From the IMG/VR virus record IMGVR_UViG_3300006880_000002, positions 2,955-66,954 of that record: DNA of 64,000 nucleotides; one strand, written 5' to 3'. Positions 12,156 through 35,476 of this stretch are shown here, piece after piece (the first letter of the stretch is position 1; each line of letters opens with the position of its first letter). The notes under the pieces were generated by a model. The model saw only the letters and a list, made by a program, of their open reading frames with translations. It did no database searches and was not told the origin of the DNA. A program made the translations under genes and the position numbers. The stretch comes from a virus.

Positions 12156-12362
12156 ATGGCCCGCCGCGACGGCGAGCCGATCTTCAGCACTGCTCGTTGC
12201 GGCGAGGAAGCGACGCACTACTCGCACGTCGGCCGGCGGTGCGCGCGGCACGCTGAAGAACTACGAGCCGCACTACGGAGCCCGAATACACTTGGGAGCA
12301 TCCTGCACGGCGGCGCGTACTCCGAAGAGGAGATCGCACGTATCGTGGTGCCGCTCGCTTAG
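12156..12362 (+). CDS. Hypothetical protein
   Basis: Last ORF of the Int1 operon. Confidence 0.45.
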   Translation: MARRDGEPIFSTARCGEEATHYSHVGRRCARHAEELRAALRSPNTLGSILHGGAYSEEEIARIVVPLA

Positions 12363-12508
12363 GCGCGCCGATAGCGGACCGCTTCCGGCCCTTTCTTTTC
12401 CAGAGCGTAAATTCCGACGGCTGCGGCGACGAGGATAGCCCCAGCGATCCACGTGGCGGAGTTGTCGGTCGGTTGCTGCGGGGTCGTGAGTGATTCTGCT
12501 TCGAGCAT
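12359..12508 (-). CDS. 49-aa single-TM protein (below ORF-track cutoff)
   Basis: MLEAESLTTPQQPTDNSATWIAGAILVAAAVGIYALEKKGPEAVRYRRA; TAATG overlap with upstream gene. Confidence 0.65.
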   Translation of the reverse strand: MLEAESLTTPQQPTDNSATWIAGAILVAAAVGIYALEKKGPEAVRYRRA

Positions 12509-14103
12509 TACGCCACCTGTAGCCAGTTACTGCCGTCCCAGTTCCATTGATGTACGGCACCGAAGTACCCTCGTCCCTGCGTGGCGTCGAGGTACGCCGC
12601 GCGCTCGGCGAGGGCCGCGTCGTCGGAGAGCCACCGGGGACCCTGCTGCGCTGTGAGTCGTCCGTCGGCGTAGACCGCGAACCAACGATAGGCGGGGCCC
12701 CCGGCGCCTACGCCAGCCACAACGCCCGCCTGCTTCGGGTAGGGCCCGTAGCGTCGGTCCTGGCCCGGAGGCGTCTTGGCAACCACCTGAGAGGCCGCCG
12801 GAGCCGCTTTCGGGGGCGCGGCCTTGATTGGGGAAGCGGCCGCGGGGGGCGCGGGCTTGGGTGGAGGTACTTTGAGAGGTACCGCTTTAATCGGGGAGGG
12901 TTTTCCGACGACGTTCGCGAGCCAAGGCTTCGTAGGCTCTTGAACTTTGACAGCGGCGTCGAAACCTTTCTGGAGCTCGGCGGTGAGACCACTTCGAACG
13001 GCCTGCAACGCTTTCTCGCTTATGTTCTTCTGGTTCACGAGACCAGAAGCGATCTTGAACCCCTGCTCGACCTCGGGACTTGCCTTGAGCGTCGCGAGTG
13101 CGTTCTTGAGCGTGGGGTTGTCCGTGACCATCTTCGCGCCTTCGGCTAGCACCTTCTGTATCTGATCGCTCGCCATGTTCGCGAGTCCGTGCGCGATTGC
13201 GGTCTGGATCTTCTCACCTGTCGCGACGGCGGTACCGATGTCGTACGCCTGACGTGCCGGGCCTTCGGGAATTGCGTTGCGCGCGGCTTCGATCATCGCC
13301 TTCGTGACATTTTGACCGGAGAGTACCTTCGTCGCCGTGTCGTACGCAGCGAGCGCGACTGCTCCTCCAGGGATAGCAGCACGGATAGCTGCTTTTGCGG
13401 CCTCATCGATGCTCTTACCTTCTGCGAGAGCAATGCCGCCAGCAATCGCCGCCGCGGCCGTCGTACCGATACCGGGCACGAACGCGATGACCGCTTGTGC
13501 GTACGGAGCCGCGTCCTTGATAATCTTCATCTGCGCTTTGGCAGCGTTGATGAAGACGTGATCGAGGCGTTCCCCGGAAGCGATGGCTTGAGCAATATCG
13601 AGCGGAGCTTTTGCCGCCTCACCGACGATGTTCGCCACGTCGACTACAATGTTTGCAGCTCCACTCGCAACGGCTTCAACGTCATCGAAGAACGTCTGCT
13701 TTTTTGGGACTGCGTTCACCGCGTTTTTGACGAGCGCTTCGGTCTCTGGTCCACCTCGCGGTGGTGCTGCGGGGGGACCGTTGTCCGGCCCTCGTGCTTT
13801 AATGAGGTAGAAGTTGATCAGCCCATGGGCTGTATTCCAATCCATTTCATCGGCGCGGGACGGTTTGCCTCCGACGATGTTTCCTCGTTTCAGGATGTCG
13901 TTCGCACGCTGAGCAAGGGCTCTCAGGATCGTGATTTCATTTGACGTAGGGGCACGACGCTGATCCTGGGTAAACTCGGCTACCAGTTCTCTTGCTGGCG
14001 TGTTCCAACCGGCGATTGTGTTTACCGTTGTTGAAGTCCCGACGCCGAACAGCACGCTCGTATGGCATTGAGAGCCAGAGAGAAAAAGCGACTCGGTCTG
14101 CAT
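12508..14103 (-). CDS. Ala-rich helical virion protein, candidate DNA-delivery/pilot protein
   Basis: Long amphipathic helices, hydrophobic FVPGIGTTAAAAIAGGIALA, Pro/Ala/Lys linker. Confidence 0.55.
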   Translation of the reverse strand: MQTESLFLSGSQCHTSVLFGVGTSTTVNTIAGWNTPARELVAEFTQDQRRAPTSNEITILRALAQRANDILKRGNIVGGKPSRADEMDWNTAHGLINFYLIKARGPDNGPPAAPPRGGPETEALVKNAVNAVPKKQTFFDDVEAVASGAANIVVDVANIVGEAAKAPLDIAQAIASGERLDHVFINAAKAQMKIIKDAAPYAQAVIAFVPGIGTTAAAAIAGGIALAEGKSIDEAAKAAIRAAIPGGAVALAAYDTATKVLSGQNVTKAMIEAARNAIPEGPARQAYDIGTAVATGEKIQTAIAHGLANMASDQIQKVLAEGAKMVTDNPTLKNALATLKASPEVEQGFKIASGLVNQKNISEKALQAVRSGLTAELQKGFDAAVKVQEPTKPWLANVVGKPSPIKAVPLKVPPPKPAPPAAASPIKAAPPKAAPAASQVVAKTPPGQDRRYGPYPKQAGVVAGVGAGGPAYRWFAVYADGRLTAQQGPRWLSDDAALAERAAYLDATQGRGYFGAVHQWNWDGSNWLQVA

Positions 14104-14150
14104 CAAAGGAGAGTACACCATGATAACCAATCTTTCAGATTATTTAACGA

Positions 14151-14918
14151 TTACGCACACCTACGAGCTGAGCGCGCTTCACCTTCGTACGACTCGCGAT
14201 GGTAGACAATCTCAGCGCTAGTCATGGCTATCTGTCCGAGTATCAAAGCCCGAAGATCTTCATCGACTGGGTTTGCTTCGTGCTGTGCGCCGATGAGCGG
14301 AAGCGGTTGGATGAGTCGGTTGTGGTCCAGATCCCACGGCTTTGGGGCACCACCCGGAGCCGTCGGGTCGAACGGGCCACAGCGGTACTGCCAGATGACT
14401 GGCTTGCGTCCGGCTGGTGATGCAGGCGTCTGATTCGGAGTGAAGTGCGCGATCCAGAGTGGATTCTCCAAAATCCACAGCGGAGATCCGAGGAGTCGAA
14501 AGTCAGCTTGCGTGATGTAGATCATGCACGCGCCCCACTCCTTCTTCACTCGGTCGACTAGCTCCTTGAGGTCGGGCTCCCAAGCGGTCGATACTGGAGT
14601 GCCAGGGTCGGGGATCGGATCGAGCTCGACATCGATTGCGGGGATAATGTCACCGTCCCCGATCTGTACGACGTCGGACACGAGCTTCAACATCTTGAAG
14701 TGGTCGTTCACCGGCTGCGACGGGCGATAGAACTGGTAGAGGCCGGTTTTGATACCGAGATCTCGGGCCTTCGAGACGTGCTCGATAGCTTTACGGTCGC
14801 GGAGGGCCCCGCCGTACGACGCGCGACAGATGACGAAGTCGCATGACGCCTTGATGCGTGCCCAAGGCGGGTTCGTGTTGTGGTGAGAGAGATCGACACC
14901 GAAACCTATCGAATCCAC
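14151..14918 (-). CDS. GH25 muramidase (endolysin)
   Basis: GVDLSHHN, YQFY, AIDVE (DxE), LWIAHF, IWQY, DLDHN. Confidence 0.9.
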   Translation of the reverse strand: MDSIGFGVDLSHHNTNPPWARIKASCDFVICRASYGGALRDRKAIEHVSKARDLGIKTGLYQFYRPSQPVNDHFKMLKLVSDVVQIGDGDIIPAIDVELDPIPDPGTPVSTAWEPDLKELVDRVKKEWGACMIYITQADFRLLGSPLWILENPLWIAHFTPNQTPASPAGRKPVIWQYRCGPFDPTAPGGAPKPWDLDHNRLIQPLPLIGAQHEANPVDEDLRALILGQIAMTSAEIVYHRESYEGEARSARRCA

Positions 14919-15553
14919 GCGAACCTTCCCTTCCGCGCGCTGTAGGCGCCGTAAGCAGCTCCAAGAGCGAGTGCGAACGCTCCAGCCCAGAGTGCGCCGT
15001 GTCCCGAGACGGTCGGAGCGCGGAACTCCGGGTGCTCGTGCAGGTAATAGGCGTCGTTCACTGCGGCCTGCACGACCTGGAGCTTCGAGAGATACCCGAG
15101 CACTCCAGCGATATCGCCGAGCGTGAAGTACCCTTTCTTGTTCGGATCGAAAACTTTCTGGTTCTGTTCGTATTCCGCACTCGGCGCTGAGAAGACGACG
15201 TCCCCCGGAGAATGAGCGCGCTTAAGGGCCGCTTGGCTGAGCTGCGCCACCATCAACTTAGCGGCGGAGTCGATGGTCCCGGATCGCGTGGCATCGCGCC
15301 AGTAGTTGAAGATGGGACCGGAGAGTTGCGCGCTTGCCGGCCAGGATTTGTACTCTTCGGGTGAGACGCCAACGTAGTTCGAGAAGGTGCTGCGGCAAAA
15401 TTGGTTCAGACCAACGCACCCGCTAGGGTTCGTCGCGGCTGGGTTGAACTTGCTCTCCAAATAGATGACGGCAAGAACCCACTCGGGACGGATGCCGAGT
15501 TGATTGTTGATCTTCCAGAGCGCGTCAGATGTCCCAGGCTGGTCAAGCGACAC
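14906..15553 (-). CDS. Lytic transglycosylase (SLT-like) with C-terminal TM anchor
   Basis: IYLESKFNPAATN..GLNQF; C-terminal hydrophobic helix + RKGR. Confidence 0.8.
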   Translation of the reverse strand: MSLDQPGTSDALWKINNQLGIRPEWVLAVIYLESKFNPAATNPSGCVGLNQFCRSTFSNYVGVSPEEYKSWPASAQLSGPIFNYWRDATRSGTIDSAAKLMVAQLSQAALKRAHSPGDVVFSAPSAEYEQNQKVFDPNKKGYFTLGDIAGVLGYLSKLQVVQAAVNDAYYLHEHPEFRAPTVSGHGALWAGAFALALGAAYGAYSARKGRFAWIR

Positions 15554-16079
15554 GGCGCGCCTCCTCAGAAGCGGCCCATGCCCAGTCTCGATACCCGTCC
15601 TGGGTCGGGTGGAGATGATCGCCTGCCATCGGGAGGAACTGCGCAGTCACGACAGGTACCCCGAGTGAGGCTATCATGTCGTGAGCCGGCGTGTTCACGG
15701 TTGCAGGCGGCTGGATCCACACGACCTTCGCGCCCATCGCCTGGAGAGTTTGGACGATGCGCTGCGCGTTTGCGGCGCTCGGCGCGTTTCCGTCGTTCAC
15801 CCCGAGAGACACCAGTACTACCTCAGGGGCGAACGTCGACAACCAAGACGGGATCTTCGCCTGATAGGTGTTCAGACCGACGATGCCGGAGCCTTTGAAC
15901 GCCGAGAAGCCGGGACCCATGAACGGCGTGAGCCCAACGGCGTACGAGTCTCCGAAGAGCGCGACGCGCGGTGTCTTCACCTTCTCGTGAGCCTTCTTAC
16001 TAAGAACCAGATGCGTCGTTACGACCGCAACGGCGGCCCCTCCTACAGTGAGAGACTTCCAGTGATCACGCCAAGCCAC
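15543..16079 (-). CDS. SGNH/GDSL hydrolase with N-terminal TM
   Basis: FGDSY, SLGVND, DHLHP. Confidence 0.88.
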   Translation of the reverse strand: MAWRDHWKSLTVGGAAVAVVTTHLVLSKKAHEKVKTPRVALFGDSYAVGLTPFMGPGFSAFKGSGIVGLNTYQAKIPSWLSTFAPEVVLVSLGVNDGNAPSAANAQRIVQTLQAMGAKVVWIQPPATVNTPAHDMIASLGVPVVTAQFLPMAGDHLHPTQDGYRDWAWAASEEARRVA

Positions 16080-16083: not shown

Positions 16084-16611
16084 TCACCGACCCAAGATCC
16101 CGATCACGGCAACCCAGGACCCTACGAAGTGATCGTTGTCTGGCAAGTAGGTCCCGATCTTGTGGCCCTCACGAGCGTACACGGTGAATCGGATCTGAGT
16201 GACTCCGGTCGTGCTGCACAGCACGCGAAAGACGCAACCTTGCGTGACTGGGATACCTCCGAAACACTGCATCCCGAAAGGAGGTGTCGTCTGAGAGACG
16301 CCGTTTACGACCAACTGGATTTGCGGGTAGTCGCTGCTTCCATTGTTGCTCATCGTTCCGAGGAACGTGATGTCAACATACGTGCCGGCTTCTTGTTGCG
16401 GAATGTCGAAACCCAGCGCCGCGCCGCCGTCCTGTACAAGAAACGGGATCGGGTCGGGAATGTCTGGGTTGAGGTTGACCGGCACTTCGAATTTGCCGGT
16501 CGAATGTGATTCGAACGATAGCGGCAGCACCGAAGGGATCACCGGGGAGAACTTCGCCTCCGGGTACGTCTCCCGGGAGCGTTGTCCTGGTCTCCCGATG
16601 AGTGATCCCAT
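16084..16611 (-). CDS. Beta-rich virion protein with RETYP N-terminal motif
   Basis: MGSLIGRPGQRSRETYPE followed by beta-sandwich-like sequence. Confidence 0.65.
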   Translation of the reverse strand: MGSLIGRPGQRSRETYPEAKFSPVIPSVLPLSFESHSTGKFEVPVNLNPDIPDPIPFLVQDGGAALGFDIPQQEAGTYVDITFLGTMSNNGSSDYPQIQLVVNGVSQTTPPFGMQCFGGIPVTQGCVFRVLCSTTGVTQIRFTVYAREGHKIGTYLPDNDHFVGSWVAVIGILGR

Positions 16612-16617
16612 GGGGCC

Positions 16618-17244
16618 TTAGTACGCGACGAGTGTAGCGGGCCCTACCTGTGGAACGGCTGCCGCGAGAAGCTCCGAGGCGGCCAGCGTGATCGCAGGTA
16701 GGTTACTACCGAAACTCGCGGTGCCTCCTACGAAGAACCCGACTGCGGACGTGTACGCGAGCTGCACCGTCGCTGATGTGGCACCGCCTGGTATCGTGAC
16801 CGCTGCGTAGCAACGGAACGGGGTGCGGAGGTAGAAGTCACCTTCGACAATAGAGAGAACGTTGTTACTTTCTTGGAGCGCGTTCTCGATCCAAAAGAAC
16901 CCGTTACCGGAGGCGTAGTTCGTGGCGCCGTTGAAGCTCACGACGGGGAGCATCCGTTGCAGCCCCTTATCTCCCTCTGGAAACCCGGAGGTTAGTCCTG
17001 ATGCGTCGACCACGAGAATATTCCCGGGGGTGACCCCAGGAAGAACCACTTGAAGAGGTGCTGGCACCATTGCCGCATCACGCTTGATGGTGTCAGCAAA
17101 AGCGACGCTTGGATCTTGGGTGATCGACACCGTAGGCATGTCGAAACCTGTCTTCACGAGCGCGCTTCCGGAGATGACGGTCATCGTTCGAGGTTGTGGG
17201 TACGCTTCACGAGACTTTCCGCCTCTTGGTCCAGTGATGTGCAT
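16618..17244 (-). CDS. Beta-rich virion protein with REAYP N-terminal motif
   Basis: MHITGPRGGKSREAYPQ followed by beta-rich domain. Confidence 0.65.
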   Translation of the reverse strand: MHITGPRGGKSREAYPQPRTMTVISGSALVKTGFDMPTVSITQDPSVAFADTIKRDAAMVPAPLQVVLPGVTPGNILVVDASGLTSGFPEGDKGLQRMLPVVSFNGATNYASGNGFFWIENALQESNNVLSIVEGDFYLRTPFRCYAAVTIPGGATSATVQLAYTSAVGFFVGGTASFGSNLPAITLAASELLAAAVPQVGPATLVAY

Positions 17245-17259
17245 CGGTCTACCTTTCGA

Positions 17260-17490
17260 TCAATCGGAGATCGGGTTGATGAACCGGAGCGAGACAGCCG
17301 AATCCTTCGGTCGTGACGCGTGTGAAAATCCAGAGTAATCCGAGTCGTAGTGCGGATTGTCCCCTGTGTTCGTGTGTACGTTTCTGTTGTTCCGCTTCTC
17401 GTTGTAGAAAGCGAAATCGATGAGCGACCGGGGGGCTCCGTTCTGCGAATGACCACCCTTTGCTTTGAGTGTCTTGAGTTTCTTTCTCAT
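17260..17490 (-). CDS. Small basic hypothetical protein
   Basis: ATGA-coupled, Lys-rich N-terminus. Confidence 0.5.
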   Translation of the reverse strand: MRKKLKTLKAKGGHSQNGAPRSLIDFAFYNEKRNNRNVHTNTGDNPHYDSDYSGFSHASRPKDSAVSLRFINPISD

Positions 17491-17768
17491 GATTCTTCTC
17501 CGTCTTCTTCCTTCAAACCGCCTAGCAGCAGTAACAGAGCCGCATCGACGGAGAGAGCCAAAACACTAATCGCGAAACCTCCGAGGAGGATATCGAGCGC
17601 TCTGCCGTGCCCGAAAATGATGAGCTGGAACGTTCCTGCCCAAGCCCCGACCCAGAATCCCGTGCATTGGCTGCATTCAAGGAGTCCTGGCCAGAGTCGC
17701 CTTCCCTGCTCGAAGATCGTTCCGCGAACGATGATGAGGGTCAGGCCGATGAGGGCGATCCAGATCAC
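17487..17768 (-). CDS. DUF1360-like membrane protein
   Basis: TM helices and LLECSQCTGFW (CxxC-x-x-x-W). Confidence 0.65.
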   Translation of the reverse strand: MIWIALIGLTLIIVRGTIFEQGRRLWPGLLECSQCTGFWVGAWAGTFQLIIFGHGRALDILLGGFAISVLALSVDAALLLLLGGLKEEDGEES

Positions 17769-19021
17769 GTCCCGAGCGAACCTCCTCGGTCGAAGACCCA
17801 GTCGTTGGGCCCGGTCAAGAACCGAGCGACCACGAAGCCTTGCTGCCCCGACGCGATCGTCGCGATGATGTTACCGGCGTTGTCTTTGACGTCGTATTTC
17901 TGAGCAGCGAAGTCTCTCTTCGTGATGCAGATTGTGTCGCCGTTTTTCTCACCGCCGCCGAGCTTCAAGGTTGCGGATCCGTCGCCTGTCTGTCCATCGA
18001 CGGAGTAGTGATTACCGGAGAATGCTCCGCGGTACCCCACGGTTGCCCCGGTTCCGTTGAGTGACACGTCGGTGTTTCCGGTTCCAAGCAAATCGGCCCC
18101 CGGAACAGACCCGCCATCGAACCCGCCGATAACGATGACAGCGGCACCTGTATCACCACCTGGACGAGATCCGCCTGCTTCACTGAACGACTGCCACGAA
18201 ACTCCGTCGAACAGCACCGGTAGCGTACCGTTCGATAGAGTCAGCACTGGGGCGCTAGACTCGCCGAACAACGTGTCTAAGAAGGCTGCTGTAATGCGAG
18301 CCGAGATAGCCGAGACGGAAATAATAGAGTCGAAGGACTGTATCGACCTTCCTGAGAGCGTGTTCCCTGACAAGATGCAGTTCACGATCGAGACGTTCGC
18401 GTTGTCTGCGCCAGTTCCGGCCGTAATTCCGTTTGGGAAGATCGTATTGAGACAGGCGATGTTCGCCAGTTTTTGTGTCGTTGTCGCGTCGACCAGACCT
18501 GTTACGGCGATGTTCGAGTCGCCTATCTCGTCAGCGCTGATGATAAATAATGACGATGGCGCGCTCGCGTCGTCAGTGAGCGTGATCGTTCCTATGACTC
18601 CGATATTGTGCAGACCAGAAACGGCGAGAGAGCCTGCGAAAGCGCCTGCGATGTTGGCCCAAGTCACGTTTCCGGTAATTCCAGTACCCGGACCGAATCC
18701 TTGCGAGTCCGCTCGGAGTTGGGTCGACGCGTACGCTGGAAATGCGACGTTCTCCGTATAGCCTCCAGTGATCGAAGGTGTTACCCATCCCACGTAATTC
18801 GCGGACGCATCGTTGGCGGACACGTTCGTGCGTGACGCCATGAACTGCGCGATCGTCTTGAACGGCGAAGAGCTCGCGCCGTTAAGACCAGTTTGAGTCG
18901 TATCTCCGTCGATGAACCTCTGCCTGGAAAGGGGCGGGAGTGCCGCGAGAATGCCGACTGCTGGGGATTGCGGGTACGACTCGGGCGATCGACCGCCCCT
19001 TCTGTGTCCTGCTAGATGCAT
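17765..19021 (-). CDS. Fibre/spike-like protein (beta-helix-like) with PESYP N-terminal motif
   Basis: MHLAGHRRGGRSPESYPQ; FID..G..G.SSSPFKTI motif typical of beta-helix starts; Gly/Thr/Asn-rich. Confidence 0.65.
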   Translation of the reverse strand: MHLAGHRRGGRSPESYPQSPAVGILAALPPLSRQRFIDGDTTQTGLNGASSSPFKTIAQFMASRTNVSANDASANYVGWVTPSITGGYTENVAFPAYASTQLRADSQGFGPGTGITGNVTWANIAGAFAGSLAVSGLHNIGVIGTITLTDDASAPSSLFIISADEIGDSNIAVTGLVDATTTQKLANIACLNTIFPNGITAGTGADNANVSIVNCILSGNTLSGRSIQSFDSIISVSAISARITAAFLDTLFGESSAPVLTLSNGTLPVLFDGVSWQSFSEAGGSRPGGDTGAAVIVIGGFDGGSVPGADLLGTGNTDVSLNGTGATVGYRGAFSGNHYSVDGQTGDGSATLKLGGGEKNGDTICITKRDFAAQKYDVKDNAGNIIATIASGQQGFVVARFLTGPNDWVFDRGGSLGT

Positions 19022-19033
19022 GTTGAGCTCCTA

Positions 19034-19525
19034 TCAGCCTGGTTCCGCGACTTCGACTAATGTGAGCACCGAGTTGGCCGTGACGATGTTGACTAGGGCG
19101 TCACCGATCACTTTCACGGTTACGTTCGACAGAACCCCAACGACGAAGGAGAGTCCGGTTACGTATGAAAGAACGTCGTTGGTTCCAGCTGGAATGTTGA
19201 TCGTCATGGCTGCCGGAAGTTGCGCTACTCCGTTCACCAGAATTTGAACGGTCACATCGTGGGCCGAAGCGTCGGCGTTGAAGAGTCCAACAGAGATCGA
19301 GGCTATGGCCAAACGGCTTGACTTCGCCGTAAATGGAACGTTCGTTCCAGGGGCCAAAGTGCTTAGTACAGCGATCCACGGAATGATGGTTCCGCCAGGC
19401 GCTGCTTGTGTATCAGGCCCAGGCCCAACAGCTCCGTTCGTTGCGAACGGACCGAGTTTGGAAGCGAATCGCGGACGCTCGGGGTAAGTCTCCCGAGCAA
19501 AATTCCTACCCATTCTGTGAGCCAT
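19034..19525 (-). CDS. Beta-rich virion protein with RETYP N-terminal motif
   Basis: MAHRMGRNFARETYPE followed by C1q/BclA-like beta strands. Confidence 0.65.
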   Translation of the reverse strand: MAHRMGRNFARETYPERPRFASKLGPFATNGAVGPGPDTQAAPGGTIIPWIAVLSTLAPGTNVPFTAKSSRLAIASISVGLFNADASAHDVTVQILVNGVAQLPAAMTINIPAGTNDVLSYVTGLSFVVGVLSNVTVKVIGDALVNIVTANSVLTLVEVAEPG

Positions 19526-19527: not shown

Positions 19528-19710
19528 TCAGCGTTCCTTTTTGGCGATTTCGACGAGACGCGCGACCTGCTCCGCGCTGAGCTTGATGTGTCCCACCGAT
19601 CCGTTCTCCGTATCGTCATCGGAGATCGTCATCGATCCGTCCTCGAACTTCGCTACGGTCGGGCAGCAACGTTTTCCGTAGCAGAGCATCTCTTCGTGGA
19701 TCTTCATCAC
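19528..19710 (-). CDS. Small hypothetical protein
   Basis: Coupled ORF, CYGKRCCP motif. Confidence 0.55.
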   Translation of the reverse strand: MMKIHEEMLCYGKRCCPTVAKFEDGSMTISDDDTENGSVGHIKLSAEQVARLVEIAKKER

Positions 19711-20909
19711 TTCCTCCGCTTGTGCGACTTCTTTCGACGCACCGGGCCGCGCTGACCGCGCTTGCCGCGAGCGCCGCGTGCGCCTTTTTTGCTGAGTGCG
19801 ACCGCGGTTACGCCGATGACGGCGACGACGCCGAGAGCGCCGACCACCATCGCTCCAGTCGAGAGGCCCTTCTTCTCCGCAGGGGCCGGGGCGACCACGA
19901 CGGGCGCAGTCGATCCGGAGGAGCTCGGCGGGGTTGCCGGGGTACCCGGTGGAGTGTAGGAAGGCGCCGGGATCTGATTCGCTGGACCACGACTCTCAGG
20001 GGTACTGCCAGGAATGACGGGAGTCGTCGTTGGTACCGGTGGAAGTTTTGTCGGAACGACCACAGCGGTCGGTGCGGGCGGCGTCGCAGCTCCGGGGACG
20101 ATCGGATTCACGACACCGACCGGGGCCCACCACGTGGGGCGCGGGCTACAAGCCGCCGGAGCGCTCGGGAGGATGCGCCGGGCCGCCGCGGCGGTGTCCG
20201 TGCCGTACTTGCCGTCCTGGGCGACCCCGAGGGCCTTCTGGGCGGCGTAGACGATGGCGACGTTCGTCTGGAGGCAAGGATTGACGGACGCGAGCGCGGC
20301 GACAGCAGCGGGCACCGCGACTGAGGCGGTCGCCGGCACCGGAACTGGCGCCGACACAGGTGGAAGTACCGTGGAACCGCAATTCGACGACCCGACCGGA
20401 GCCCACCATGAGGGGCGGGGGGAGCATGCGGGCGGCGCGCCGGCAAAAACCCGTCGAGCGGCGGTTGCCGTGTCGGTTCCGTACTTGCCGTCGACCGAGA
20501 CTCCGAGCGCTTTCTGCGCGGCGCACACGATTCCGACGTTCGCTTGCTGGCAGGGGTCGATCGCGCCGAGCGCGATGACTGCCGCGGGGGCGAGCGCCGG
20601 GGTGACCGTCGGCGAGACGGCCGTCGGGATCGTGGCTGCCGACGGAACGATGGGGCACGAACTCTGACCGACGGGAGCCCACCACGTCGGGCGAGGGGAG
20701 CATCCCGCGGGAGCGTTCGGCATGCGCGATCGAGCGGCCGTTGAAGTGTCCGTTCCCCACTTCCCGTCGACCTTGACACCGAGCGCGGCCTGTGCGGCGC
20801 AAACGAGCATCACGTTCGCTTGGAGGCACGGTCCACCGGCTGCGATGACCGCGAGAATGGCATCCTGAGCTGCGTCACCGAGGCCGAGAGGGTAGGGCAT
20901 GTTGCGCAT
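19707..20909 (-). CDS. Membrane-anchored protein with three peptidoglycan-binding-like repeats
   Basis: 3x PC-x-Q-x-NV..AAQ-x-ALGV-xx-DGK-x-GTDT..CSPRP-x-WWAPVG; C-terminal GLSTGA-TM-basic tail. Confidence 0.75.
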   Translation of the reverse strand: MRNMPYPLGLGDAAQDAILAVIAAGGPCLQANVMLVCAAQAALGVKVDGKWGTDTSTAARSRMPNAPAGCSPRPTWWAPVGQSSCPIVPSAATIPTAVSPTVTPALAPAAVIALGAIDPCQQANVGIVCAAQKALGVSVDGKYGTDTATAARRVFAGAPPACSPRPSWWAPVGSSNCGSTVLPPVSAPVPVPATASVAVPAAVAALASVNPCLQTNVAIVYAAQKALGVAQDGKYGTDTAAAARRILPSAPAACSPRPTWWAPVGVVNPIVPGAATPPAPTAVVVPTKLPPVPTTTPVIPGSTPESRGPANQIPAPSYTPPGTPATPPSSSGSTAPVVVAPAPAEKKGLSTGAMVVGALGVVAVIGVTAVALSKKGARGARGKRGQRGPVRRKKSHKRRK

Positions 20910-20942: not shown

Positions 20943-21596
20943 TTACCGACGTCGTTTCTTACGAGTCGCGAGATACACACCACCGCCGACGACGGCGACG
21001 CCGCCTGCGATGATTCCGACCTTCATTCCGGTCGAGAGACCTGAGAATCCCTTACCCGCCTGGCACCACTTGCTCTCAGGGTCAGGGAAACCTGTGGGGA
21101 AATTCGTCGGGTCGAGCGCGGCCGTCATCACGAGCGCGCAGAGCGAGTCGTCGTCGAACACGCCGTCGGTTCGGAGCTTTCGTGCCGACGAGTTGATCGG
21201 CACAACGTTCGCGTTGTACCAGTTCTGAAAGCACCCACCGGCCGCGGCGATCGACGGACCCCACGTCTTACAGCTAGTGCCCGTGTTCTTCACGATGAGA
21301 TCGTTCAGTTTCGTGAGCGTGTTCATCACCCACGCCTGCTGATCGCGGTTGAGCTTCACCCACACATCGCCACTGGCGCCGAGTCCGAGCTCGAAACCAG
21401 CAAGGCCAGTACCGCCGAGAGAAATTTGTTCGTTCATGAGGGTTCCTGTGCAGCCCGGACCACCCGGGAGGGTTTGGGCGTAGTTGCACGCCGCCTGACG
21501 CATACCCGGATCGGTCGGCCCCTGAACAGGGACGTCCTTCACGAAATTGTTCTGTCCGGAGACGCGTGCGGTAGCTTGGGCAGGGGTCATAGCCAT
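20943..21596 (-). CDS. Membrane-anchored virion protein
   Basis: Cys-rich ectodomain, LRTDGVFD PG-binding-like motif, GLSTG-TM-RKKRRR. Confidence 0.7.
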   Translation of the reverse strand: MAMTPAQATARVSGQNNFVKDVPVQGPTDPGMRQAACNYAQTLPGGPGCTGTLMNEQISLGGTGLAGFELGLGASGDVWVKLNRDQQAWVMNTLTKLNDLIVKNTGTSCKTWGPSIAAAGGCFQNWYNANVVPINSSARKLRTDGVFDDDSLCALVMTAALDPTNFPTGFPDPESKWCQAGKGFSGLSTGMKVGIIAGGVAVVGGGVYLATRKKRRR

Positions 21597-26681: not shown

Positions 26682-27395
26682 TCAAGTGAGCGTTGGATAC
26701 CGGTAATCGATCCAGGATCGTGGCGGAGACGGCTTCTTCGGAGCTCCGTCTCCCACTCCGAACGCGCCAGCGAGCCCCGCGGCACGGAGTGCGTGAAGAT
26801 CGGCCATGCCGAGAAAGTCTCCGTGGCCTTTTTCTTTCGCTTCTGCGCCGGGCTCAATCCACCACTCTTTGAGATGCGACGCGATCTGACCAACAGGATA
26901 GTCAGTCGTGCCGTCGAGCTTCACCCACTTACCGAGATCATCCTTGAACGCACCGAACACGTGCGTCGGAACGTCGGCTGGAGCGCGACTGGAGCTCAAG
27001 ATCACCATTGTCTCGATCCCGATCGACATGAGCGCCGCGAGAATCGTGATCGTCGCGTCGTCGCAATCGCCAGCGAGAAGACAGAGACCGCCCGCGTCGT
27101 CGAGACAGAGCGTCTGGTGAGGCGTCGCCATCGTCTCTCCCATGACGGGGTCTTTGACGTAGGCGACGGTCGCTCGAAACTCGTCGAGAATTGCTTGCGC
27201 CTGTTGGCGCTTCGTACCGGTAGCGACGTTGTGTTTTCGGATCGCCTTGATCGCCCACTCGCGTACGCGTGGGCTCATGCGGTGCTTCCACGCACGCTCC
27301 GCTACTTCCTTGCCTGAGAGCTTCGCGCCGTCTGCACCAGCAGGATGTGGCCTGGCTTCCGTCTTCACACCGGCAACGGCTTTATCGGTAACCAT
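26682..27395 (-). CDS. Transglutaminase-like (Cys-His-Asp) protein
   Basis: YVKDP, GDCDD, THVF, LDGT; start MVTDK at 27395. Confidence 0.8.
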   Translation of the reverse strand: MVTDKAVAGVKTEARPHPAGADGAKLSGKEVAERAWKHRMSPRVREWAIKAIRKHNVATGTKRQQAQAILDEFRATVAYVKDPVMGETMATPHQTLCLDDAGGLCLLAGDCDDATITILAALMSIGIETMVILSSSRAPADVPTHVFGAFKDDLGKWVKLDGTTDYPVGQIASHLKEWWIEPGAEAKEKGHGDFLGMADLHALRAAGLAGAFGVGDGAPKKPSPPRSWIDYRYPTLT

Positions 27396-28224
27396 GTTCG
27401 TACACTCGCCTGACTCGGGGACGTTTCTTCCAGTAGTAAATCCCGCCCCCGACGACGGCGATTGCCGCGGCCCAACCGAACATGGCGCCGGCAGAGATCC
27501 CGCCTTTTTGCGTAGAAGCCACCGGCTGCGGCGGAACAACCACCTCTACAGGTTGCTGAGGAGGAAGTGTCGGGAGCGGCCCCGCTCCTCCGTAGTACGA
27601 CTGGAGAGCAAGACGCGCGCTCCCGAGCGCCGTCGCGAGAGATTGACGAATGTCAGAGCGAGCCGAAGCGACCTCGGGTTGGTTACCGACGTTGATCGCA
27701 GCGTTCATGTCGGCCGTTCGCTGCCGCGCGTACGCGAGCGCAGTGCGCGCGTCGGTCGCGAACTTCACCGAGGCCGCCATACCGGTGCGTCCGACCTCGT
27801 TCATCGCGAAGTCGACGGCATCGATCACCGTGCCAGCGGTCGCGGCGAACTCACGGTCGCCCATCGTGTCGAGAAGGCTCACTGCAGTCGTCGCCGCGTC
27901 GAGCGTCGGGAAGTCCCCGAGGGTGCCAGCGAGCCCGACGCCAGCGGTGCCGACCGGTGTCACACCATCGTAATGAGGAAGGAGCTCGAAATACGACTTC
28001 GGGAGCCGGTCGAGCGTCCCGTCGAACCAACGATCGGGGAGATTCAGAACCTCACCGACACGAAGAGGGTCCCGGAACGTGATGAAACCGTTCGGCATTC
28101 GCACCGCGGCGCGATGTGAGTTGACACTCACGAGATCCCGAGCGCACTTCGGGCAACCAGCGTGAGAATCTTGGGCGGCGATCGACGCCGGGGAATCTCC
28201 TACCTGAACGGTGTACTGGCGCAC
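27382..28224 (-). CDS. LysM-domain membrane-anchored protein
   Basis: YTVQVGDSPASIA...LRVGEVLNLP; C-terminal GISAGA-TM-KKRPR. Confidence 0.8.
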   Translation of the reverse strand: MRQYTVQVGDSPASIAAQDSHAGCPKCARDLVSVNSHRAAVRMPNGFITFRDPLRVGEVLNLPDRWFDGTLDRLPKSYFELLPHYDGVTPVGTAGVGLAGTLGDFPTLDAATTAVSLLDTMGDREFAATAGTVIDAVDFAMNEVGRTGMAASVKFATDARTALAYARQRTADMNAAINVGNQPEVASARSDIRQSLATALGSARLALQSYYGGAGPLPTLPPQQPVEVVVPPQPVASTQKGGISAGAMFGWAAAIAVVGGGIYYWKKRPRVRRVYEHGYR

Positions 28225-28751: not shown

Positions 28752-30344
28752 TCAACCGCCTTGCTCCCACGCACGCTGGCCCGGGGGAGGCGCCTCCGTC
28801 TCTTGGATGGTGGGAGGTACAGCTTGAGGAGGGGGCGGGAGACCTTGCTGCGGCGCCGGAGCGGGCGTCACGACGGCCTGCGGCTGTGGCGGTGGTTGCT
28901 GGTCTTCATAGACGAACCTGTAACCCTCGGGGGGTTGATCGCCGGATCGCACGTTCACCTGCTGTCCTACGTACGGTTGTTGCTTCGGGGGCTGCGTCGG
29001 CGCTTGCTCCGTTTCACGACGATTCTTCTCCTCTACCTTGTCCAACATGTCGCCGAGCCACTTGAGCGCCTTCGGAGCGCCGACCATGAGGGTCGGGGCC
29101 CACTGGATCTTGCCATCCTCGTCGTGGATGACGTCCATGTCCCCGATCTTCTTGGTGCGAAGACCGCTGTCGTCTTCTTGTGACGTCGTCTCTGGTTCGT
29201 CGGGCTCGGGAACACTTCCGCCGCCGCCAAACACGCTCTGCACCTCGGACGCGAAGCTCCGCATCTGACGCATCTGCGTGAGCCCGTCACGCCACGCGTC
29301 CATTTGTGAGCGCTGTGGTTGCTGCGGCTCTTGTGGAGGAGGTCTTTGCTGCGGACGGTACGGAGGCTGCTGTCGTTCGTACCCACCTCCGAGATCACGT
29401 CGCTGTATCGGCTGAATCGTCCAACCTGTGTCCGTGCGGAACACGAGCTCGTGGCCCGGAGGAGGCGTCACAGCCGGAGGTTGTGGAACCGCCGCCGCGG
29501 CAGGTTGCTGCGGCACGAATTGCTGCTGGGGCACCGGAGCCGGCGCTGGCTGTTGGGGCTGTTGACCAGGAGGACGCCACCCCATGCTCTCGAACCACTG
29601 CGCCATCTCGCGCATTTTGGCCATGTCCGTTCCAGGCGGCGGGGGTTGAGGCACCGGAGCTTGCTGTTGTCCAGGCGGCTGAAAACCAAGTCCTATGAAG
29701 TAATCTCGCCACGCGTTCAACTCGGCGAACTGATCTTTTGCTGGCGGAGGCGCAGCGGCGGGCTGCGGCACAGGTTGAGGAGGCACACCGTACGGGGGCT
29801 GCTGTGGCGGATATCCCATGGGTTGATCTCGCAAGTGAGCCGGACGTGTGTCCGGGAGAACGATGCGGCCTGTCCCTTTGAATTGGCCGTCGGGAGTGAC
29901 GAACTGGATCTTGTACTCAGCCTCCGCGCTCGGTCCGTGGTAGCGCATGAGCGTTTCGTACATGTCATCGGCGTTGCGAGGACGGTTCTTGATGACGTAC
30001 GACACCTGATCCCCGGTGAGCCGCTTCATACGGATGGTGAGCGCGCTCGCTCCGTACGCTTTCACCAGACCGTCGTAAGACGTCATAATGTCGTCGCTGT
30101 TGAACGAGACGTGTCTCTCGCCCGACTTCTTGCGTTTCACCGCGTCTCGACGTCTACGATTTTCGAGCACGCTCTCGGCATCGGCCGCACCGACACGGCG
30201 AATGTTTTCCGTAGATGTGACGAGATCCCCGTTCTCGTCTTCTGTCGCTCGTGCCTGTTGGATGACGTCTTCCTCGTCATCTGCGAATGGCGTGACAGGG
30301 TCACGCTCGCGCGGCCGTCGTGTGCTTGCCATGCCGTTGTTCAA
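28752..30344 (-). CDS. Pro/Gln-rich largely disordered protein
   Basis: Folded N-terminal part then long PQ tracts with two G-(F/W)-x-PPGQQ repeats. Confidence 0.7.
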   Translation of the reverse strand: MNNGMASTRRPRERDPVTPFADDEEDVIQQARATEDENGDLVTSTENIRRVGAADAESVLENRRRRDAVKRKKSGERHVSFNSDDIMTSYDGLVKAYGASALTIRMKRLTGDQVSYVIKNRPRNADDMYETLMRYHGPSAEAEYKIQFVTPDGQFKGTGRIVLPDTRPAHLRDQPMGYPPQQPPYGVPPQPVPQPAAAPPPAKDQFAELNAWRDYFIGLGFQPPGQQQAPVPQPPPPGTDMAKMREMAQWFESMGWRPPGQQPQQPAPAPVPQQQFVPQQPAAAAVPQPPAVTPPPGHELVFRTDTGWTIQPIQRRDLGGGYERQQPPYRPQQRPPPQEPQQPQRSQMDAWRDGLTQMRQMRSFASEVQSVFGGGGSVPEPDEPETTSQEDDSGLRTKKIGDMDVIHDEDGKIQWAPTLMVGAPKALKWLGDMLDKVEEKNRRETEQAPTQPPKQQPYVGQQVNVRSGDQPPEGYRFVYEDQQPPPQPQAVVTPAPAPQQGLPPPPQAVPPTIQETEAPPPGQRAWEQGG

Positions 30345-30766: not shown

Positions 30767-31026
30767 GAAGGCTCCTCTGAAAAATTGAGGCGAGCGAACT
30801 CGCCGAAGTGTTTGCGTGCAGCTGAGTCGTAGGCGCGGGCGGCTTCCTCTTCAGTGACGAAACGGCCGATGTAAATCAGTTGACGATCGACCCGAACGCG
30901 AGCGAGCCATGGTGCGGCTCCGGGAGCAAACGGACCTGAGCATCCTCGACCGATTCGAGAATTTTCTCGACCACGTTCTCGCTGGAACTCCGTACCGCAC
31001 CGGAGACACGTCAGATCGACTTTCAC
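30763..31026 (-). CDS. AP2-domain protein lacking HNH
   Basis: WLARVRVD..IYIGRF-x-TEEEAARAYD-x-AARKHFGEFARLNF; N-terminal CLRC. Confidence 0.75.
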   Translation of the reverse strand: MKVDLTCLRCGTEFQRERGRENSRIGRGCSGPFAPGAAPWLARVRVDRQLIYIGRFVTEEEAARAYDSAARKHFGEFARLNFSEEPS

Positions 31027-31682
31027 AGGCGTCCGTCCTCCAGGAAGCTGTAGAAACTCGGATCTTTCACACTGCCCCCGGCGATTATATGGTCCAAGAG
31101 ACAAATCTCCAGGCCACTCTCGTTGAGCGTGTCAAATACCTCGACGAAAGCTTCCGTCGTTTCGATGTCAGCTTCACTAGGCTGCGCTTCGACCCCAGAT
31201 GGATGGCAGTGGAACAAAATAATCGCGTGAGCCCCATCAATGAGCGCCGCTTGAAGTGTGGGAACCATCGGTGCCATGACGCTCGTTGGTTCGCCGCGCC
31301 CCGTCTCGAAAACGCTCTTCATACGCATGTGTAGATCGAGCGATACCCCACCGAAGACCTCGTTCACTTCATCACCGATGGCCTCCATGATGAGCTGAGC
31401 CGCCTTCTTCGGCGTGTCGAGGGGCCCGATCTCGTCGGCGAGCGCGTTGCACGCCGCGAACCTCTCAGCGTCCTTCTGAACAACGAGGAACGGGCGACAC
31501 TTTGAGCCTGGTCCTCCGGCGAGCACGATGGGGTCGATGCCTTCCGGAGTTTTGGGTCGCACCTTCTCGGCAACCTCACGAGCGCGGAGCTTCGCTTGCT
31601 TCGGCAGGTGGCACTCGCAGGGCTTCTTGCTCTGTACAGCACGCACCATGCGAGGCGCTACGATGTAGGGACGGGCGCTCAC
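31023..31682 (-). CDS. RadC-like JAB-domain protein
   Basis: E, HCHPSG, PSEAD, LLDHII; GTG start coupled to upstream stop. Confidence 0.85.
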   Translation of the reverse strand: MSARPYIVAPRMVRAVQSKKPCECHLPKQAKLRAREVAEKVRPKTPEGIDPIVLAGGPGSKCRPFLVVQKDAERFAACNALADEIGPLDTPKKAAQLIMEAIGDEVNEVFGGVSLDLHMRMKSVFETGRGEPTSVMAPMVPTLQAALIDGAHAIILFHCHPSGVEAQPSEADIETTEAFVEVFDTLNESGLEICLLDHIIAGGSVKDPSFYSFLEDGRL

Positions 31683-34653: not shown

Positions 34654-34711
34654 CCTGCAACATCAGGTTGCAGCGCTGGCGGAAACCGGTCGTGTGGTAG
34701 GCTTCCAAGTT

Positions 34712-35032
34712 GTGGATGTCGTGACGACTGCCGCAAGCTCATCGGAAAAACTCGCCGAGCACGGGGTGCTGGGGCTCGTCTGCCTGTTCCTCATCTCCGC
34801 GGTCGTGTGGCTGTACCGGGCGCGTGACGCCGATGCGAAAAACTACAACGCGGAGTTGCAGAAGGCGACGGACGGTAGGCTTGCCGACGCAAAGGCGTAT
34901 ACTGACAAGGTGCTAACAATCCAAAGCACCGTCCTCGAAGCAGTGAAAGCTCTTCAAGAGCTCTACGAAATGGAGCAGAACCGCAACCAGCCGCGTCAAC
35001 GCGGACGTTTTCCGTCGAGCGGAGGCACATGA
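34712..35032 (+). CDS. Holin-like single-TM coiled-coil protein
   Basis: LAEHGVLGLVCLFLISAVVWLY followed by coiled coil. Confidence 0.5.
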   Translation: MDVVTTAASSSEKLAEHGVLGLVCLFLISAVVWLYRARDADAKNYNAELQKATDGRLADAKAYTDKVLTIQSTVLEAVKALQELYEMEQNRNQPRQRGRFPSSGGT

Positions 35033-35262
35033 TCCCGAAGCCTCGCGTACGCTCGCCGACGCCGACTCCAGAGCAGACACAAGTGCTCGTGGACTACCAG
35101 AAGGCACTCGATGGACTCGCGGAGAGCGAAAAGTGTGTGAGGGAACTCGGGGCTCGGGCTTGCGCTGAAGTGGTCAAGCGCAAATCGATGCCGAAGATGC
35201 ACGCGCTCTCGACGGCTGAGATCGCGGCGGGCATCGCGCCGCGTCCTAACGGGCGACGGTGA
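35029..35262 (+). CDS. Hypothetical protein
   Basis: ATGA-coupled. Confidence 0.5.
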   Translation: MIPKPRVRSPTPTPEQTQVLVDYQKALDGLAESEKCVRELGARACAEVVKRKSMPKMHALSTAEIAAGIAPRPNGRR

Positions 35263-35476
35263 TCGGGAGCTGAGGCGGGGGTTCCTCGCCGGCTACTGAT
35301 GCGCCGATGAACGCACCGAGCGTCGAGCCTGCGGCACCGCCGACTACCATCGCGTCCTCTACGTTTCCGCCACGACGCGGGCGGTACTTCTGAGCGTAGA
35401 AGCCAGCAGCAGCCCCGAGCACGCCTCCAACGAGAGCACCGGCAGCGGCGGCAAGCCCTGTCTTGTAGTTGCTCAT
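35246..35476 (-). CDS. Glycine-zipper membrane protein, resembles 21814-22065
   Basis: Two GxxxG helices with the same layout. Confidence 0.65.
   Translation of the reverse strand: MSNYKTGLAAAAGALVGGVLGAAAGFYAQKYRPRRGGNVEDAMVVGGAAGSTLGAFIGASVAGEEPPPQLPITVAR

What the first reader, a model, noticed from the sequence alone, without database searches (positions are those of the whole stretch)
12359..35476. Probable large tailless, internal-membrane virus with a PolA replisome
Seen: the virion module is bounded on both sides, yet I recognise no terminase, portal, HK97 capsid, tape measure or baseplate. It has three adjacent beta-rich proteins, more than ten TM-anchored proteins, a protamine-like protein, a transglutaminase-fold enzyme and membrane-anchored SLT, LysM and SGNH proteins. 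Known: this inventory resembles internal-membrane jelly-roll viruses (PRD1, P23-77, SH1), whose genomes are much smaller and lack PolA. Inference: a possibly undescribed lineage over 64 kb that joins a tailed-phage-like replication and DNA-modification kit to a lipid-containing virion.
Basis: partly seen in the sequence, partly recalled or inferred. Interest (0 to 1): 0.9.

Follow-up and report, generated by a model that had tools for sequence, protein, structure and literature searches.

The report
Large tailless-type jelly-roll bacterial virus
This stretch is the particle-building block of a complete 67-kb uncultured soil bacterial virus that has no tailed-phage head, portal, terminase or tail genes and seems to build a jelly-roll shell, probably over a membrane, without a recognisable DNA-packaging motor.

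Summary
The record is a complete 66,954-bp virus genome with 100-bp identical ends; only 2,954 bases lay outside the window.

No terminase, portal, HK97 capsid or tail family was found. I scanned 110 ORF products against PHROGs and searched six frames of up to 10 related records.

Six genes are shared with all 4 whole relatives compared: the 530-aa protein, a Cys-His-Asp protease-like gene, the 437-, 202- and 300-aa genes, and a RadC-like gene. The Arg-rich membrane protein is shared with 3 of 4. No P-loop ATPase family is common to the five genomes. PolA is not universal in the lineage.

Tail-lessness, the internal membrane and motor-less packaging are inferences. The folds of the 202- and 300-aa proteins were not tested.

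Five literature searches found no description of this lineage. This scan has noted the same lineage on other DNA in at least 33 genomes.

The parts
23663..24976 (-). Major capsid protein candidate, 437 aa, jelly-roll core with long insertions
22968..23576 (-). Second capsid candidate, 202 aa (small capsid protein or penton); fold not tested
   Evidence: GC3 0.89. 527 homologues. A complete ORF follows the 437-aa homologue in 36 of 37 loci. Present in 4 of 4 whole relatives. No Pfam, PHROG or PDB-sequence hit.
22062..22964 (-). Third conserved protein of the capsid trio, 300 aa; role unknown (penton or cement candidate)
   Evidence: Present in 36 of 37 loci and 4 of 4 whole relatives. The only PDB-sequence hit is marginal: picornavirus VP1 5osn_A, E 0.011.
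25086..26414 (-). Arg-rich (protamine-like) protein with two hydrophobic segments; candidate DNA condenser tied to a membrane
   Evidence: 98 K/R of 442 residues and segments at 256-274 and 285-303. All 25 of 25 homologous ORFs upstream of the capsid gene have 42 or more K/R in some 100-aa window. Present in 3 of 4 whole relatives by tblastn.
26682..27395 (-). Transglutaminase/papain-like cysteine protease candidate (maturation protease or wall amidase)
   Evidence: Transglut_core E 0.0018-0.0028, under the cut-off. Cys159, His193 and Asp209 are invariant in 26 of 26, 31 of 31 and 31 of 31 non-gap rows of 33. Present in 4 of 4 whole relatives.
28752..30344 (-). Conserved 530-aa protein: N-domain (about residues 18-169), Q/P-rich linker, C-region; scaffold or core candidate
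   Evidence: No family hit. The N-domain is conserved in 4 of 4 whole relatives.
31023..31649 (-). RadC-like JAB-domain protein, part of the lineage core
   Evidence: Pfam RadC E 2e-18. Present in 4 of 4 whole relatives. The long ORF 31023-32333 is over-extended: a separate gene, 31679-32101, lies in another frame.
27382..28224 (-). 280-aa protein ending in an ISAG motif, a Gly/Ala-rich hydrophobic segment and a basic tail
   Evidence: Translation. Present in 23 of 29 loci. No LysM family by Pfam.
20943..21596 (-). 217-aa conserved protein ending in LSTG, a transmembrane segment and a YLATRKKRRR tail
   Evidence: Present in 29 of 29 loci. Segment at 193-211. Translation.
21587..22065 (-). Two small glycine-zipper membrane proteins ending in the same 13-residue peptide
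   Evidence: Gly-zipper_Omp matched by 2 members, best E 1.5e-9. Translations.
19707..20909 (-). 400-aa protein with three peptidoglycan-binding repeats, a Pro-rich stalk, LSTG, a transmembrane segment and a basic tail
   Evidence: PG_binding_1 E 2.2e-7 and PG_binding_3 E 3e-6. Segment at 354-372.
16084..19525 (-). Four spike or fibre candidates (16084-16611, 16618-17244, 17765-19021, 19034-19525) that share an N-terminal R-E-T-Y-P-E-type peptide. Two small conserved genes lie between them (17260-17490; 17487-17768, with two transmembrane segments).
   Evidence: The motif occurs 4 times in six frames, each time within about the first 20 residues of one of these ORFs. 200 shuffles gave a mean of 0.1 and a maximum of 2. 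The same N-terminal peptide is found in L012, L020, L026 and L027.
14151..16079 (-). Wall-degrading set: GH25 muramidase (14151-14918), SLT transglycosylase with a hydrophobic C-end (14906-15553) and an SGNH-like esterase with a hydrophobic N-end (15543-16079)
   Evidence: Hydrophobic ends were seen by eye.
12508..14130 (-). 540-aa Ala/Pro-rich protein of unknown role at the left end of the block
   Evidence: No family hit. Partial matches in the two close relatives only.
2860..4752 (+). Family A DNA polymerase of this genome's replication module (outside the finding's coordinates)
   Evidence: DNA_pol_A E 3e-18; phrog_17 E 1.2e-50. PF00476 was found in 2 of 5 related records.

Best explanation
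The block 12.4-35.5 kb is the virion and lysis module of a complete, circularly assembled 66.9-kb virus of a peptidoglycan-walled bacterium from rhizosphere soil. The virus belongs to a widespread uncultured lineage with records of about 54-128 kb.

SHOWN
- The genome is complete.
- It has no detectable tailed-phage morphogenesis genes.
- Its most conserved and most codon-biased protein (437 aa) has a jelly-roll fold.
- The lineage is defined by a conserved block: 530-aa protein, Cys-His-Asp protease-like protein, Arg-rich membrane protein, then the 437-, 202- and 300-aa proteins, with a RadC-like gene nearby.
- No P-loop ATPase belongs to that block.

INFERRED
- The 437-aa protein, with the 202- and 300-aa proteins, forms a tailless icosahedral shell.
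- The many small membrane proteins and tail-anchored wall-binding proteins sit in a lipid layer under that shell.
- The Arg-rich protein condenses the DNA against that membrane, and the shell assembles around this core, as in SPV1, rather than being filled by a motor.
- The protease-like protein matures the particle.
- Interchangeable spikes dock at the vertices through a shared N-terminal peptide.
- The membrane-anchored SLT and SGNH enzymes open the wall at entry, and the soluble GH25 enzyme lyses the cell.
For: - Completeness: 100-bp identical ends. IMG/VR classes the ends as direct terminal repeats and CheckV gives 100%.
- No hallmarks: PHROGs on 110 ORF products. PF03237 matched 0 of 10 records. 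PF03354, PF04860, PF05065, PF01580 and PF04665 each matched 0 of 5.
- Walker A (GK[ST]) occurs in real genes only in the SNF2-like and Dda-like helicases.
- Core: shared with 4 of 4 whole relatives are the 300-, 202-, 437-aa, protease-like, 530-aa and RadC-like genes; the basic protein is shared with 3 of 4. The same order holds in the 7 distant loci.
- No P-loop family is common to the five genomes.
- Basic tract in 25 of 25 homologues. Cys/His/Asp invariant.
- Membrane segments in 15 of 36 module proteins.
- Docking motif 4 observed against 0.1 expected.
- Habitat: two rhizosphere runs hold 0.95-0.99 of the sampled words; one may be the source.
Against: - The PRD1 P3 alignments have rmsd above 7 A.
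- The 202- and 300-aa folds are untested.
- Profile comparison finds no kinship among the three proteins (E 0.17, 0.29, 0.61).
- Lack of HMM hits cannot exclude a very divergent terminase, portal or ATPase. Only one portal Pfam family and one HK97 Pfam family were searched in six frames.
- One weak terminase-small-subunit row (phrog_800, E 0.0013) among the 19 replication-side ORFs was not traced to its ORF.
- A shared N-terminal adaptor on variable spikes is also usual in tailed phages (recalled).
- No lipid, particle or expression data exist.
- The host is unknown. The capsid gene was found in 1 of 185,579 species genomes by pattern scan and in 1 of 401 genomes of that MAG's phylum.
Confidence: 0.65

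Rival explanations
1. It is a member of the PRD1-type or sphaerolipovirus-type viruses in the strict sense. The packaging ATPase and the capsid kinship have diverged beyond sequence detection, and DNA is pumped into a preformed, membrane-lined procapsid.
Against: FtsK_SpoIIIE and Pox_A32 matched 0 of 5 records. No Walker A protein lies in the module. No P-loop family is shared by the five genomes, although this ATPase is the best-conserved gene of those viruses (PMC8328091, abstract seen in a search listing). Only the first barrel of P3 (chain residues 14-255) aligns to the whole model, at rmsd above 7 A.
Confidence: 0.13
2. It is a very divergent tailed phage. The HK97-fold capsid protein, portal and terminase hide among the unannotated ORFs, and the 437/202/300-aa proteins are decoration, fibre or baseplate parts.
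Against: No TerL family among 110 ORF products. 0 of 10 records matched PF03237 and 0 of 5 matched PF03354. No Walker A candidate for a TerL. The only genes shared with 4 of 4 whole relatives are the jelly-roll block, the protease-like, 530-aa and RadC-like genes, so nothing else could be a conserved head, portal or terminase set. Receptor-binding proteins are usually the least conserved genes, whereas the 437-aa protein is the most conserved (about 70% identity over 120 listed homologues).
Confidence: 0.08
3. It is not a particle-forming virus but an integrative plasmid-like element. Its conserved jelly-roll and membrane proteins build a cell-surface or vesicle structure used for transfer.
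For: Two tyrosine recombinases. Many membrane and wall-binding proteins. No packaging motor found.
Against: No conjugation ATPase is possible without a Walker A protein. The wall-degrading set (GH25, SLT, SGNH) and the strong codon bias and conservation of three adjacent non-membrane proteins fit a capsid. IMG/VR holds 36 related records as viral, with terminal repeats. It is almost absent from cellular genomes.
Confidence: 0.08

Closest known systems
Portogloboviridae (Sulfolobus polyhedral virus 1, PDB 6oj0)
   Different: SPV1 is 20 kb, archaeal, hyperthermophilic and non-lytic, and encodes no polymerase. This genome is 67 kb (related records 54-128 kb), it targets peptidoglycan, and it carries its own replication, DNA-modification and lysis genes. 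There is no sequence similarity: the profile of the 437-aa family found no capsid chain in PDB sequences even at E up to 10. The basic protein here is Arg-repeat plus membrane segments; its likeness to VP1 was not tested.
Sphaerolipovirus-type viruses (HCIV-1, HHIV-2, SH1; Thermus phage P23-77)
   Different: Those viruses share a packaging ATPase (PMC8328091, abstract in a search listing). None was found here. Their genomes are several times smaller (recalled). No kinship was detected between the 437- and 202-aa families. The 202-aa fold is untested.
PRD1-type double jelly-roll viruses (Tectiviridae and kin)
   Different: Only one barrel of P3 aligns, at rmsd above 7 A. No FtsK/A32-type ATPase was found. 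PRD1's genome is several times smaller, with protein-primed PolB replication (recalled), whereas this genome has PolA and a primase-polymerase.
[quoted passage not shown]
   Same: It is a tailless, membrane-containing bacterial virus with PRD1-type architecture, two capsid protein types and a genome almost without database relatives (PMC6356626, passages read).
   Different: No phage record among 50,697 matches the 437-aa protein by tblastn. I did not check that SSIP-1 is in that collection. It is halophilic, not from soil. Its own gene content was not examined here.

Membership tests
Caudoviricetes (tailed phages) | Terminase large subunit (ATPase plus nuclease) | tested here: not met
   No TerL PHROG among 110 ORF products. 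PF03237 matched 0 of 10 records and PF03354 0 of 5; control genomes matched. No free Walker A protein.
Caudoviricetes (tailed phages) | HK97-fold major capsid protein | tested here: inconclusive
   The best capsid candidate is a jelly-roll. PF05065 matched 0 of 5. There is no capsid PHROG. Other ORFs were not folded.
Caudoviricetes (tailed phages) | Portal protein and tail genes | tested here: inconclusive
   PF04860 matched 0 of 5. No portal or tail PHROG was found apart from the SLT-domain rows. Only one portal Pfam family was searched in six frames.
PRD1-type double jelly-roll viruses (Bamfordvirae) | Double jelly-roll capsid protein (two barrels in one chain) | tested here: inconclusive
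PRD1-type and sphaerolipovirus-type viruses | FtsK/HerA-type (A32-like) packaging ATPase | tested here: not met
   PF01580 and PF04665 each matched 0 of 5. No Walker A protein in the module. No P-loop family common to the five genomes.
Sphaerolipovirus-type viruses (Helvetiavirae) | Two single jelly-roll capsid proteins from adjacent genes | tested here: inconclusive
   Adjacent 437- and 202-aa genes are conserved in 36 of 37 loci. The first has a jelly-roll core.
Portogloboviridae | Sequence kinship with SPV1 capsid proteins VP4 and VP10 | tested here: not met
   The profile of 83 homologues against all PDB chain sequences found no viral capsid chain at E up to 10. The profiles of the 202- and 300-aa families found no SPV1 chain.
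Portogloboviridae | Single jelly-roll shell, with no packaging ATPase | tested here: inconclusive
All internal-membrane icosahedral viruses | Lipid layer under the protein shell | not testable with these tools
   The only evidence is indirect: 15 of 36 module proteins have hydrophobic segments.

The most novel reading that the evidence does not exclude
These genomes represent a deep, so far unnamed lineage of bacterial viruses of family to realm rank. They enclose 54-128 kb of DNA in a jelly-roll shell and membrane without any packaging motor. A membrane-tethered protamine-like protein condenses the genome and the shell assembles around it. This strategy is known among prokaryotic viruses only from the 20-kb archaeal SPV1. 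The capsid block travels between unrelated replication modules.
Probability: 0.35. Interest if true: 0.9.

Novelty: new variant of a known kind. Interest (0 to 1): 0.8.

Why it matters
Tailless, membrane-lined jelly-roll viruses of bacteria are known with small genomes, and most use an FtsK-type motor.

A common soil lineage of the same general build, with genomes three to six times larger and no recognisable motor, would widen what such capsids are thought able to carry. It would give a bacterial example of assembly around a condensed nucleoprotein core. It would also show that a large share of 'unclassified' viral contigs in soil metagenomes are not tailed phages.

The conserved 437-, 202- and 300-aa genes could serve as marker genes to count this group in viromes.

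Tried and rejected
- First AF2 run on 36 close homologues (about 70% identity): pLDDT 41.6, unusable. A second run with 83 diverse homologues worked.
- Complex prediction of the 437- and 202-aa proteins: no verdict (score 0.00, controls not run). This is not evidence either way.
- The look-up of sequencing runs: no RNA holder listed. This says nothing about expression.
- Kinship among the three capsid-block families by hhalign: E 0.17, 0.29 and 0.61. The shared R-(I/V)-P-F and G-W-(E/Q) peptides noted by readers are therefore unproven as homology.
- PDB-sequence profile searches: the 437-aa family gave only chance rows (antibodies, PCSK9); the 202-aa family gave none; the 300-aa family gave one marginal picornavirus VP1 row, E 0.011.
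- ESM Atlas for the 202-aa protein: only unnamed viral clusters, and no stored model for either protein.
- Host search: 1 hit in 185,579 species genomes by pattern scan, a 5.8-kb contig of a Binatia MAG. Only that same MAG matched among 401 genomes of its phylum. No tRNA gene. The host stays unknown.
- Single distant homologues as queries for IMG/VR found nothing.
- The weak phrog_800 (small terminase, E 0.0013) row was not traced: it was not among the 10 ORFs rescanned.
- A 243-aa P-loop protein beside the capsid block of relative G002 was considered as a packaging ATPase. I rejected it: it has a homologue only in G406, none in the window, and its motifs look like a dNMP kinase by recall.
- Supplements of papers were not consulted.
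- I did not examine the frameshift, hairpin and 'GLG cleavage' ideas of the other first-reader notes.

Full report
WHAT THE RECORD IS

The window is bases 2955-66954 of a single 66,954-base contig. The first and last 100 bases of that contig are identical. The genome tool calls it a virus record with direct terminal repeats and a CheckV completeness of 100%. They hold the N-terminal part of a Dda/RecD-like helicase that runs across the contig junction (AAA_30 E 6.6e-14; its C-part at 63368-63991 matches UvrD_C_2 at E 3.8e-10) and the start of a PD-(D/E)XK nuclease. G+C is about 0.6 throughout. Two rhizosphere metagenome runs hold 0.95-0.99 of the sampled words of the capsid region; one of them may be the source.

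CHECK OF THE OBSERVATION

I called 101 genes with a codon-usage score, added alternates, and scanned 110 ORF products against PHROGs (40 of the module, 51 of the right arm, 19 of the left arm).

- No terminase large subunit, portal, capsid, tail tube, sheath, tape-measure or baseplate family appeared.
- The four 'tail' or 'lytic tail' rows of the module all fall on the SLT domain of 14906-15553.
- One weak small-terminase row (phrog_800, E 0.0013) among the left-arm ORFs was not traced.
- Pfam confirms GH25 (14151-14918), SLT (14906-15553), three PG-binding repeats (19707-20909), a RadC-like JAB domain and two glycine-zipper proteins.
- Pfam gives only sub-threshold support for SGNH (15543-16079) and the transglutaminase core (26682-27395), and no support for LysM.
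- Hydrophobic segments of transmembrane strength occur in 15 of 36 module proteins. Three more proteins have Gly/Ala-rich hydrophobic ends that I saw by eye.
- The protein 25086-26414 has 98 Lys/Arg in 442 residues, followed by two hydrophobic segments.

THE CAPSID CANDIDATE

The 437-aa and 202-aa genes have the strongest codon bias of the genome (GC3 0.87 and 0.89). Neither they nor the 300-aa gene match any Pfam or PHROG family.

The 437-aa protein has at least 426 homologues, and the 120 listed are 66-80% identical. It also has 188 representatives among 50%-identity clusters, 68 of them at E of 1e-30 or better, nearly all 400-480 residues long. The 202-aa protein has 527 homologues.

A first model from 36 close homologues failed (pLDDT 41.6). 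A model from 83 diverse homologues reached pLDDT 87.7 and pTM 0.86 and is rich in beta strands. The fold searches gave these results:

- Foldseek against the PDB found nothing at E of 0.001 or better. Of the 21 rows shown, 20 are papillomavirus L1 and one is birnavirus VP2.
- Against BFVD the best rows are capsid proteins of CRESS-DNA viruses.
- In all of these the matched jelly-roll spans model residues from about 45-70 to 417-437, and only the first barrel of P3 is used.

I read this as one jelly-roll core with long insertions, not a collinear double jelly-roll. That reading is an inference, because I could not inspect coordinates.

No row that I could recognise as an HK97-fold capsid protein appeared. 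The tailed-phage rows are fibres, receptor-binding or baseplate parts, and a 140-residue chain of the Pam1 capsid entry whose identity I could not check.

The capsid role itself rests on the fold together with conservation, codon bias and gene context, since non-viral jelly-rolls score alike.

MISSING MOTORS AND HALLMARKS IN THE LINEAGE

Six-frame family searches of this genome and four distant relatives gave 0 of 5 for each of Terminase_6N, TerL_ATPase, Phage_portal, Phage_capsid, FtsK_SpoIIIE and Pox_A32. The relatives were 105.5, 79.6, 55.2 and 60.0 kb; three have terminal repeats. Control genomes matched each time. Terminase_6N also gave 0 of 5 in five closer relatives.

In this genome a GK[ST] Walker A motif inside a plausible gene occurs only in the SNF2-like helicase and the Dda-like helicase. 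Among P-loop ORFs of five whole genomes, no family is common to all. A 243-aa P-loop protein beside the capsid block of one relative has a homologue in one other genome only. It has none in the window and looks like a dNMP kinase by recall.

WHAT DEFINES THE LINEAGE

IMG/VR holds 36 related loci on records of 4-128 kb. Of these, 29 carry a capsid protein 63-74% identical and 7 carry one 42-46% identical.

- Within 10 kb of the capsid gene, the close set keeps most of the module. The 437-, 202-, 300- and 217-aa genes are present in 29 of 29, the basic protein in 27, the protease-like gene in 24 and the 530-aa gene in 21. Many loci are cut short.
- The distant set keeps the order 530-aa, protease-like, basic protein, 437, 202, 300. 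The capsid trio and the protease-like gene are present in 7 of 7, the 530-aa gene in 5 and the basic protein in 4.
- I fetched four whole relatives and compared 107 window ORF products with them. Only six are shared with all four: the 300-, 202-, 437-aa, protease-like, 530-aa and RadC-like (31023-31649) genes. The basic protein matches three.
- The replication genes of the window (PolA, SNF2, nuclease, primase-polymerase) match the two close relatives only.
- The PolA family was found in 2 of 5 related records and not in the two complete distant ones.

The capsid block is therefore the constant part and the replication module is exchangeable. PolA describes this genome, not the group.

OTHER PARTS OF THE MODULE

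- Basic protein: every one of 25 homologous ORFs upstream of the capsid gene has a window of 42 or more Lys/Arg per 100 residues.
- Protease-like protein: a Cys, a His and an Asp are invariant in all rows that cover them (26 of 26, 31 of 31 and 31 of 31, out of 33 rows).
- Spikes: four minus-strand ORFs (16084-16611, 16618-17244, 17765-19021, 19034-19525) begin with the same R-E-(T/A/S)-Y-P-(E/Q)-type peptide and then diverge. The motif occurs 4 times in six frames against 0.1 expected (maximum 2 in 200 shuffles). It heads ORFs in four related loci as well.
- Tail-anchored proteins: three proteins (19707-20909, 20943-21596, 27382-28224) end in LSTG or ISAG, a Gly/Ala-rich transmembrane segment and a basic tail.

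HOW IT MOST LIKELY WORKS

Shown: the gene inventory, the jelly-roll fold of the 437-aa protein, the conserved block, and the absence of detectable motors.

Inferred, in falling order of confidence:

1. The 437-aa protein is the main shell protein, and the 202- and 300-aa proteins are co-shell or vertex proteins.
2. The particle has no tail, and spikes with a common N-terminal plug sit at the vertices.
3. A lipid layer carrying the small membrane proteins and the tail-anchored wall-binding and wall-cutting proteins lies under the shell. The SLT and SGNH enzymes act at entry, and the soluble GH25 enzyme acts at lysis.
4. The Arg-rich protein condenses the genome on that membrane and the shell assembles around it without a motor, as described for SPV1.
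5. The Cys-His-Asp protein, and perhaps the JAB protein, process particle proteins.

COMPARISON WITH WHAT IS KNOWN

The nearest described builds are SPV1, the sphaerolipovirus-type viruses with P23-77, PRD1-type viruses and SSIP-1.

- SPV1 has a single jelly-roll shell, an inner lipid layer, a nucleoprotein core, a 20-kb circular genome, no ATPase among its assigned functions, and an archaeal host (ICTV profile PMC8459092, passages read).
- Sphaerolipovirus-type viruses and P23-77 have two jelly-roll capsid proteins.
- SSIP-1 is a membrane-containing phage with two capsid protein types (review PMC6356626, passages read).

Membership of any of these fails or stays open. There is no sequence kinship, there is no packaging ATPase, and the structural scores are too low to choose between them.

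NOVELTY

Five full-text searches found no description of a 50-130-kb bacterial virus lineage with jelly-roll capsid genes and no packaging ATPase. For those papers I saw listings and abstracts only, apart from the two read in passages. The supplements were closed.

Notes of this same scan describe the same or sister lineages in at least 33 other genomes, with the same reading. They are not independent evidence. One of them reports jelly-roll folds for at least two proteins of a homologous trio, which I could not test here.

CAVEATS

- Every structural match is weak.
- Two of the three capsid-block proteins are unfolded.
- HMM silence cannot exclude very divergent motors.
- There are no particle, lipid, host or expression data.

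Noticed in passing
window 51451-52002 (+): A rhomboid intramembrane protease gene (Pfam Rhomboid E 3.4e-18; six-frame match at genome 54543-54914). It was found in this genome and not in four distant relatives; tblastn shows homologues in the two close relatives. Three module proteins end in LSTG or ISAG, a transmembrane segment and a basic tail, and could be its substrates, as earlier notes on other genomes suggested.
   Followed up: partly
window 16084-19525 (-); L012, L020, L026, L027: A lineage-wide N-terminal peptide (G-R-G-R-Y-A-R-E-T-Y-P-E type) heads otherwise unrelated spike-like proteins. There are 4 copies here against 0.1 expected by shuffling.
   Followed up: yes
window 21587-21823 and 21814-22065 (-): Two neighbouring glycine-zipper membrane proteins end in the same 13-residue peptide, although the rest of the two proteins differs.
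   Followed up: no
window 31023-32333 (-): The long ORF is a composite. The RadC-like JAB domain fills only the last 208 codons (31023-31649). A separate, well-biased 140-codon gene (31679-32101) lies upstream in another frame. The RadC-like gene is one of only six genes shared with all four whole relatives.
   Followed up: partly
window 39217-41021 (-): ORF 40035-41021 matches the integrase loci of the relatives, so it is a second tyrosine recombinase. The DpdA domain lies in the C-terminal part of the overlapping ORF 39217-40953. QueC (38493-39227) and a QueE-like gene follow.
   Followed up: partly
whole relatives G002, G004 (L042-L048): The distant complete relatives share none of the window's replication genes and have no family A polymerase. 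The capsid block therefore moves between different replication modules.
   Followed up: partly
window 8562-9989 (-): A 475-aa Thr/Ser-rich protein without any family hit lies next to the integrase and outside the module. It is 47-51% identical in the two close relatives only and lacks the N-terminal docking peptide.
   Followed up: no
window 23663-24976 and 22968-23576 (-): The 437- and 202-aa proteins both carry an N-proximal R-(I/V)-P-F peptide and end their folded part in a hydrophobic strand followed by G-W-(E/Q). hhalign aligns exactly these last strands, but at E 0.17.
   Followed up: partly
G002 about 36741-37469 (L043); G406 about 17415-18152 (L049): A 243-246-aa P-loop protein that looks like a dNMP kinase (by recall) lies beside the capsid block in one distant relative and elsewhere in a close one. 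The window has no homologue.
   Followed up: partly
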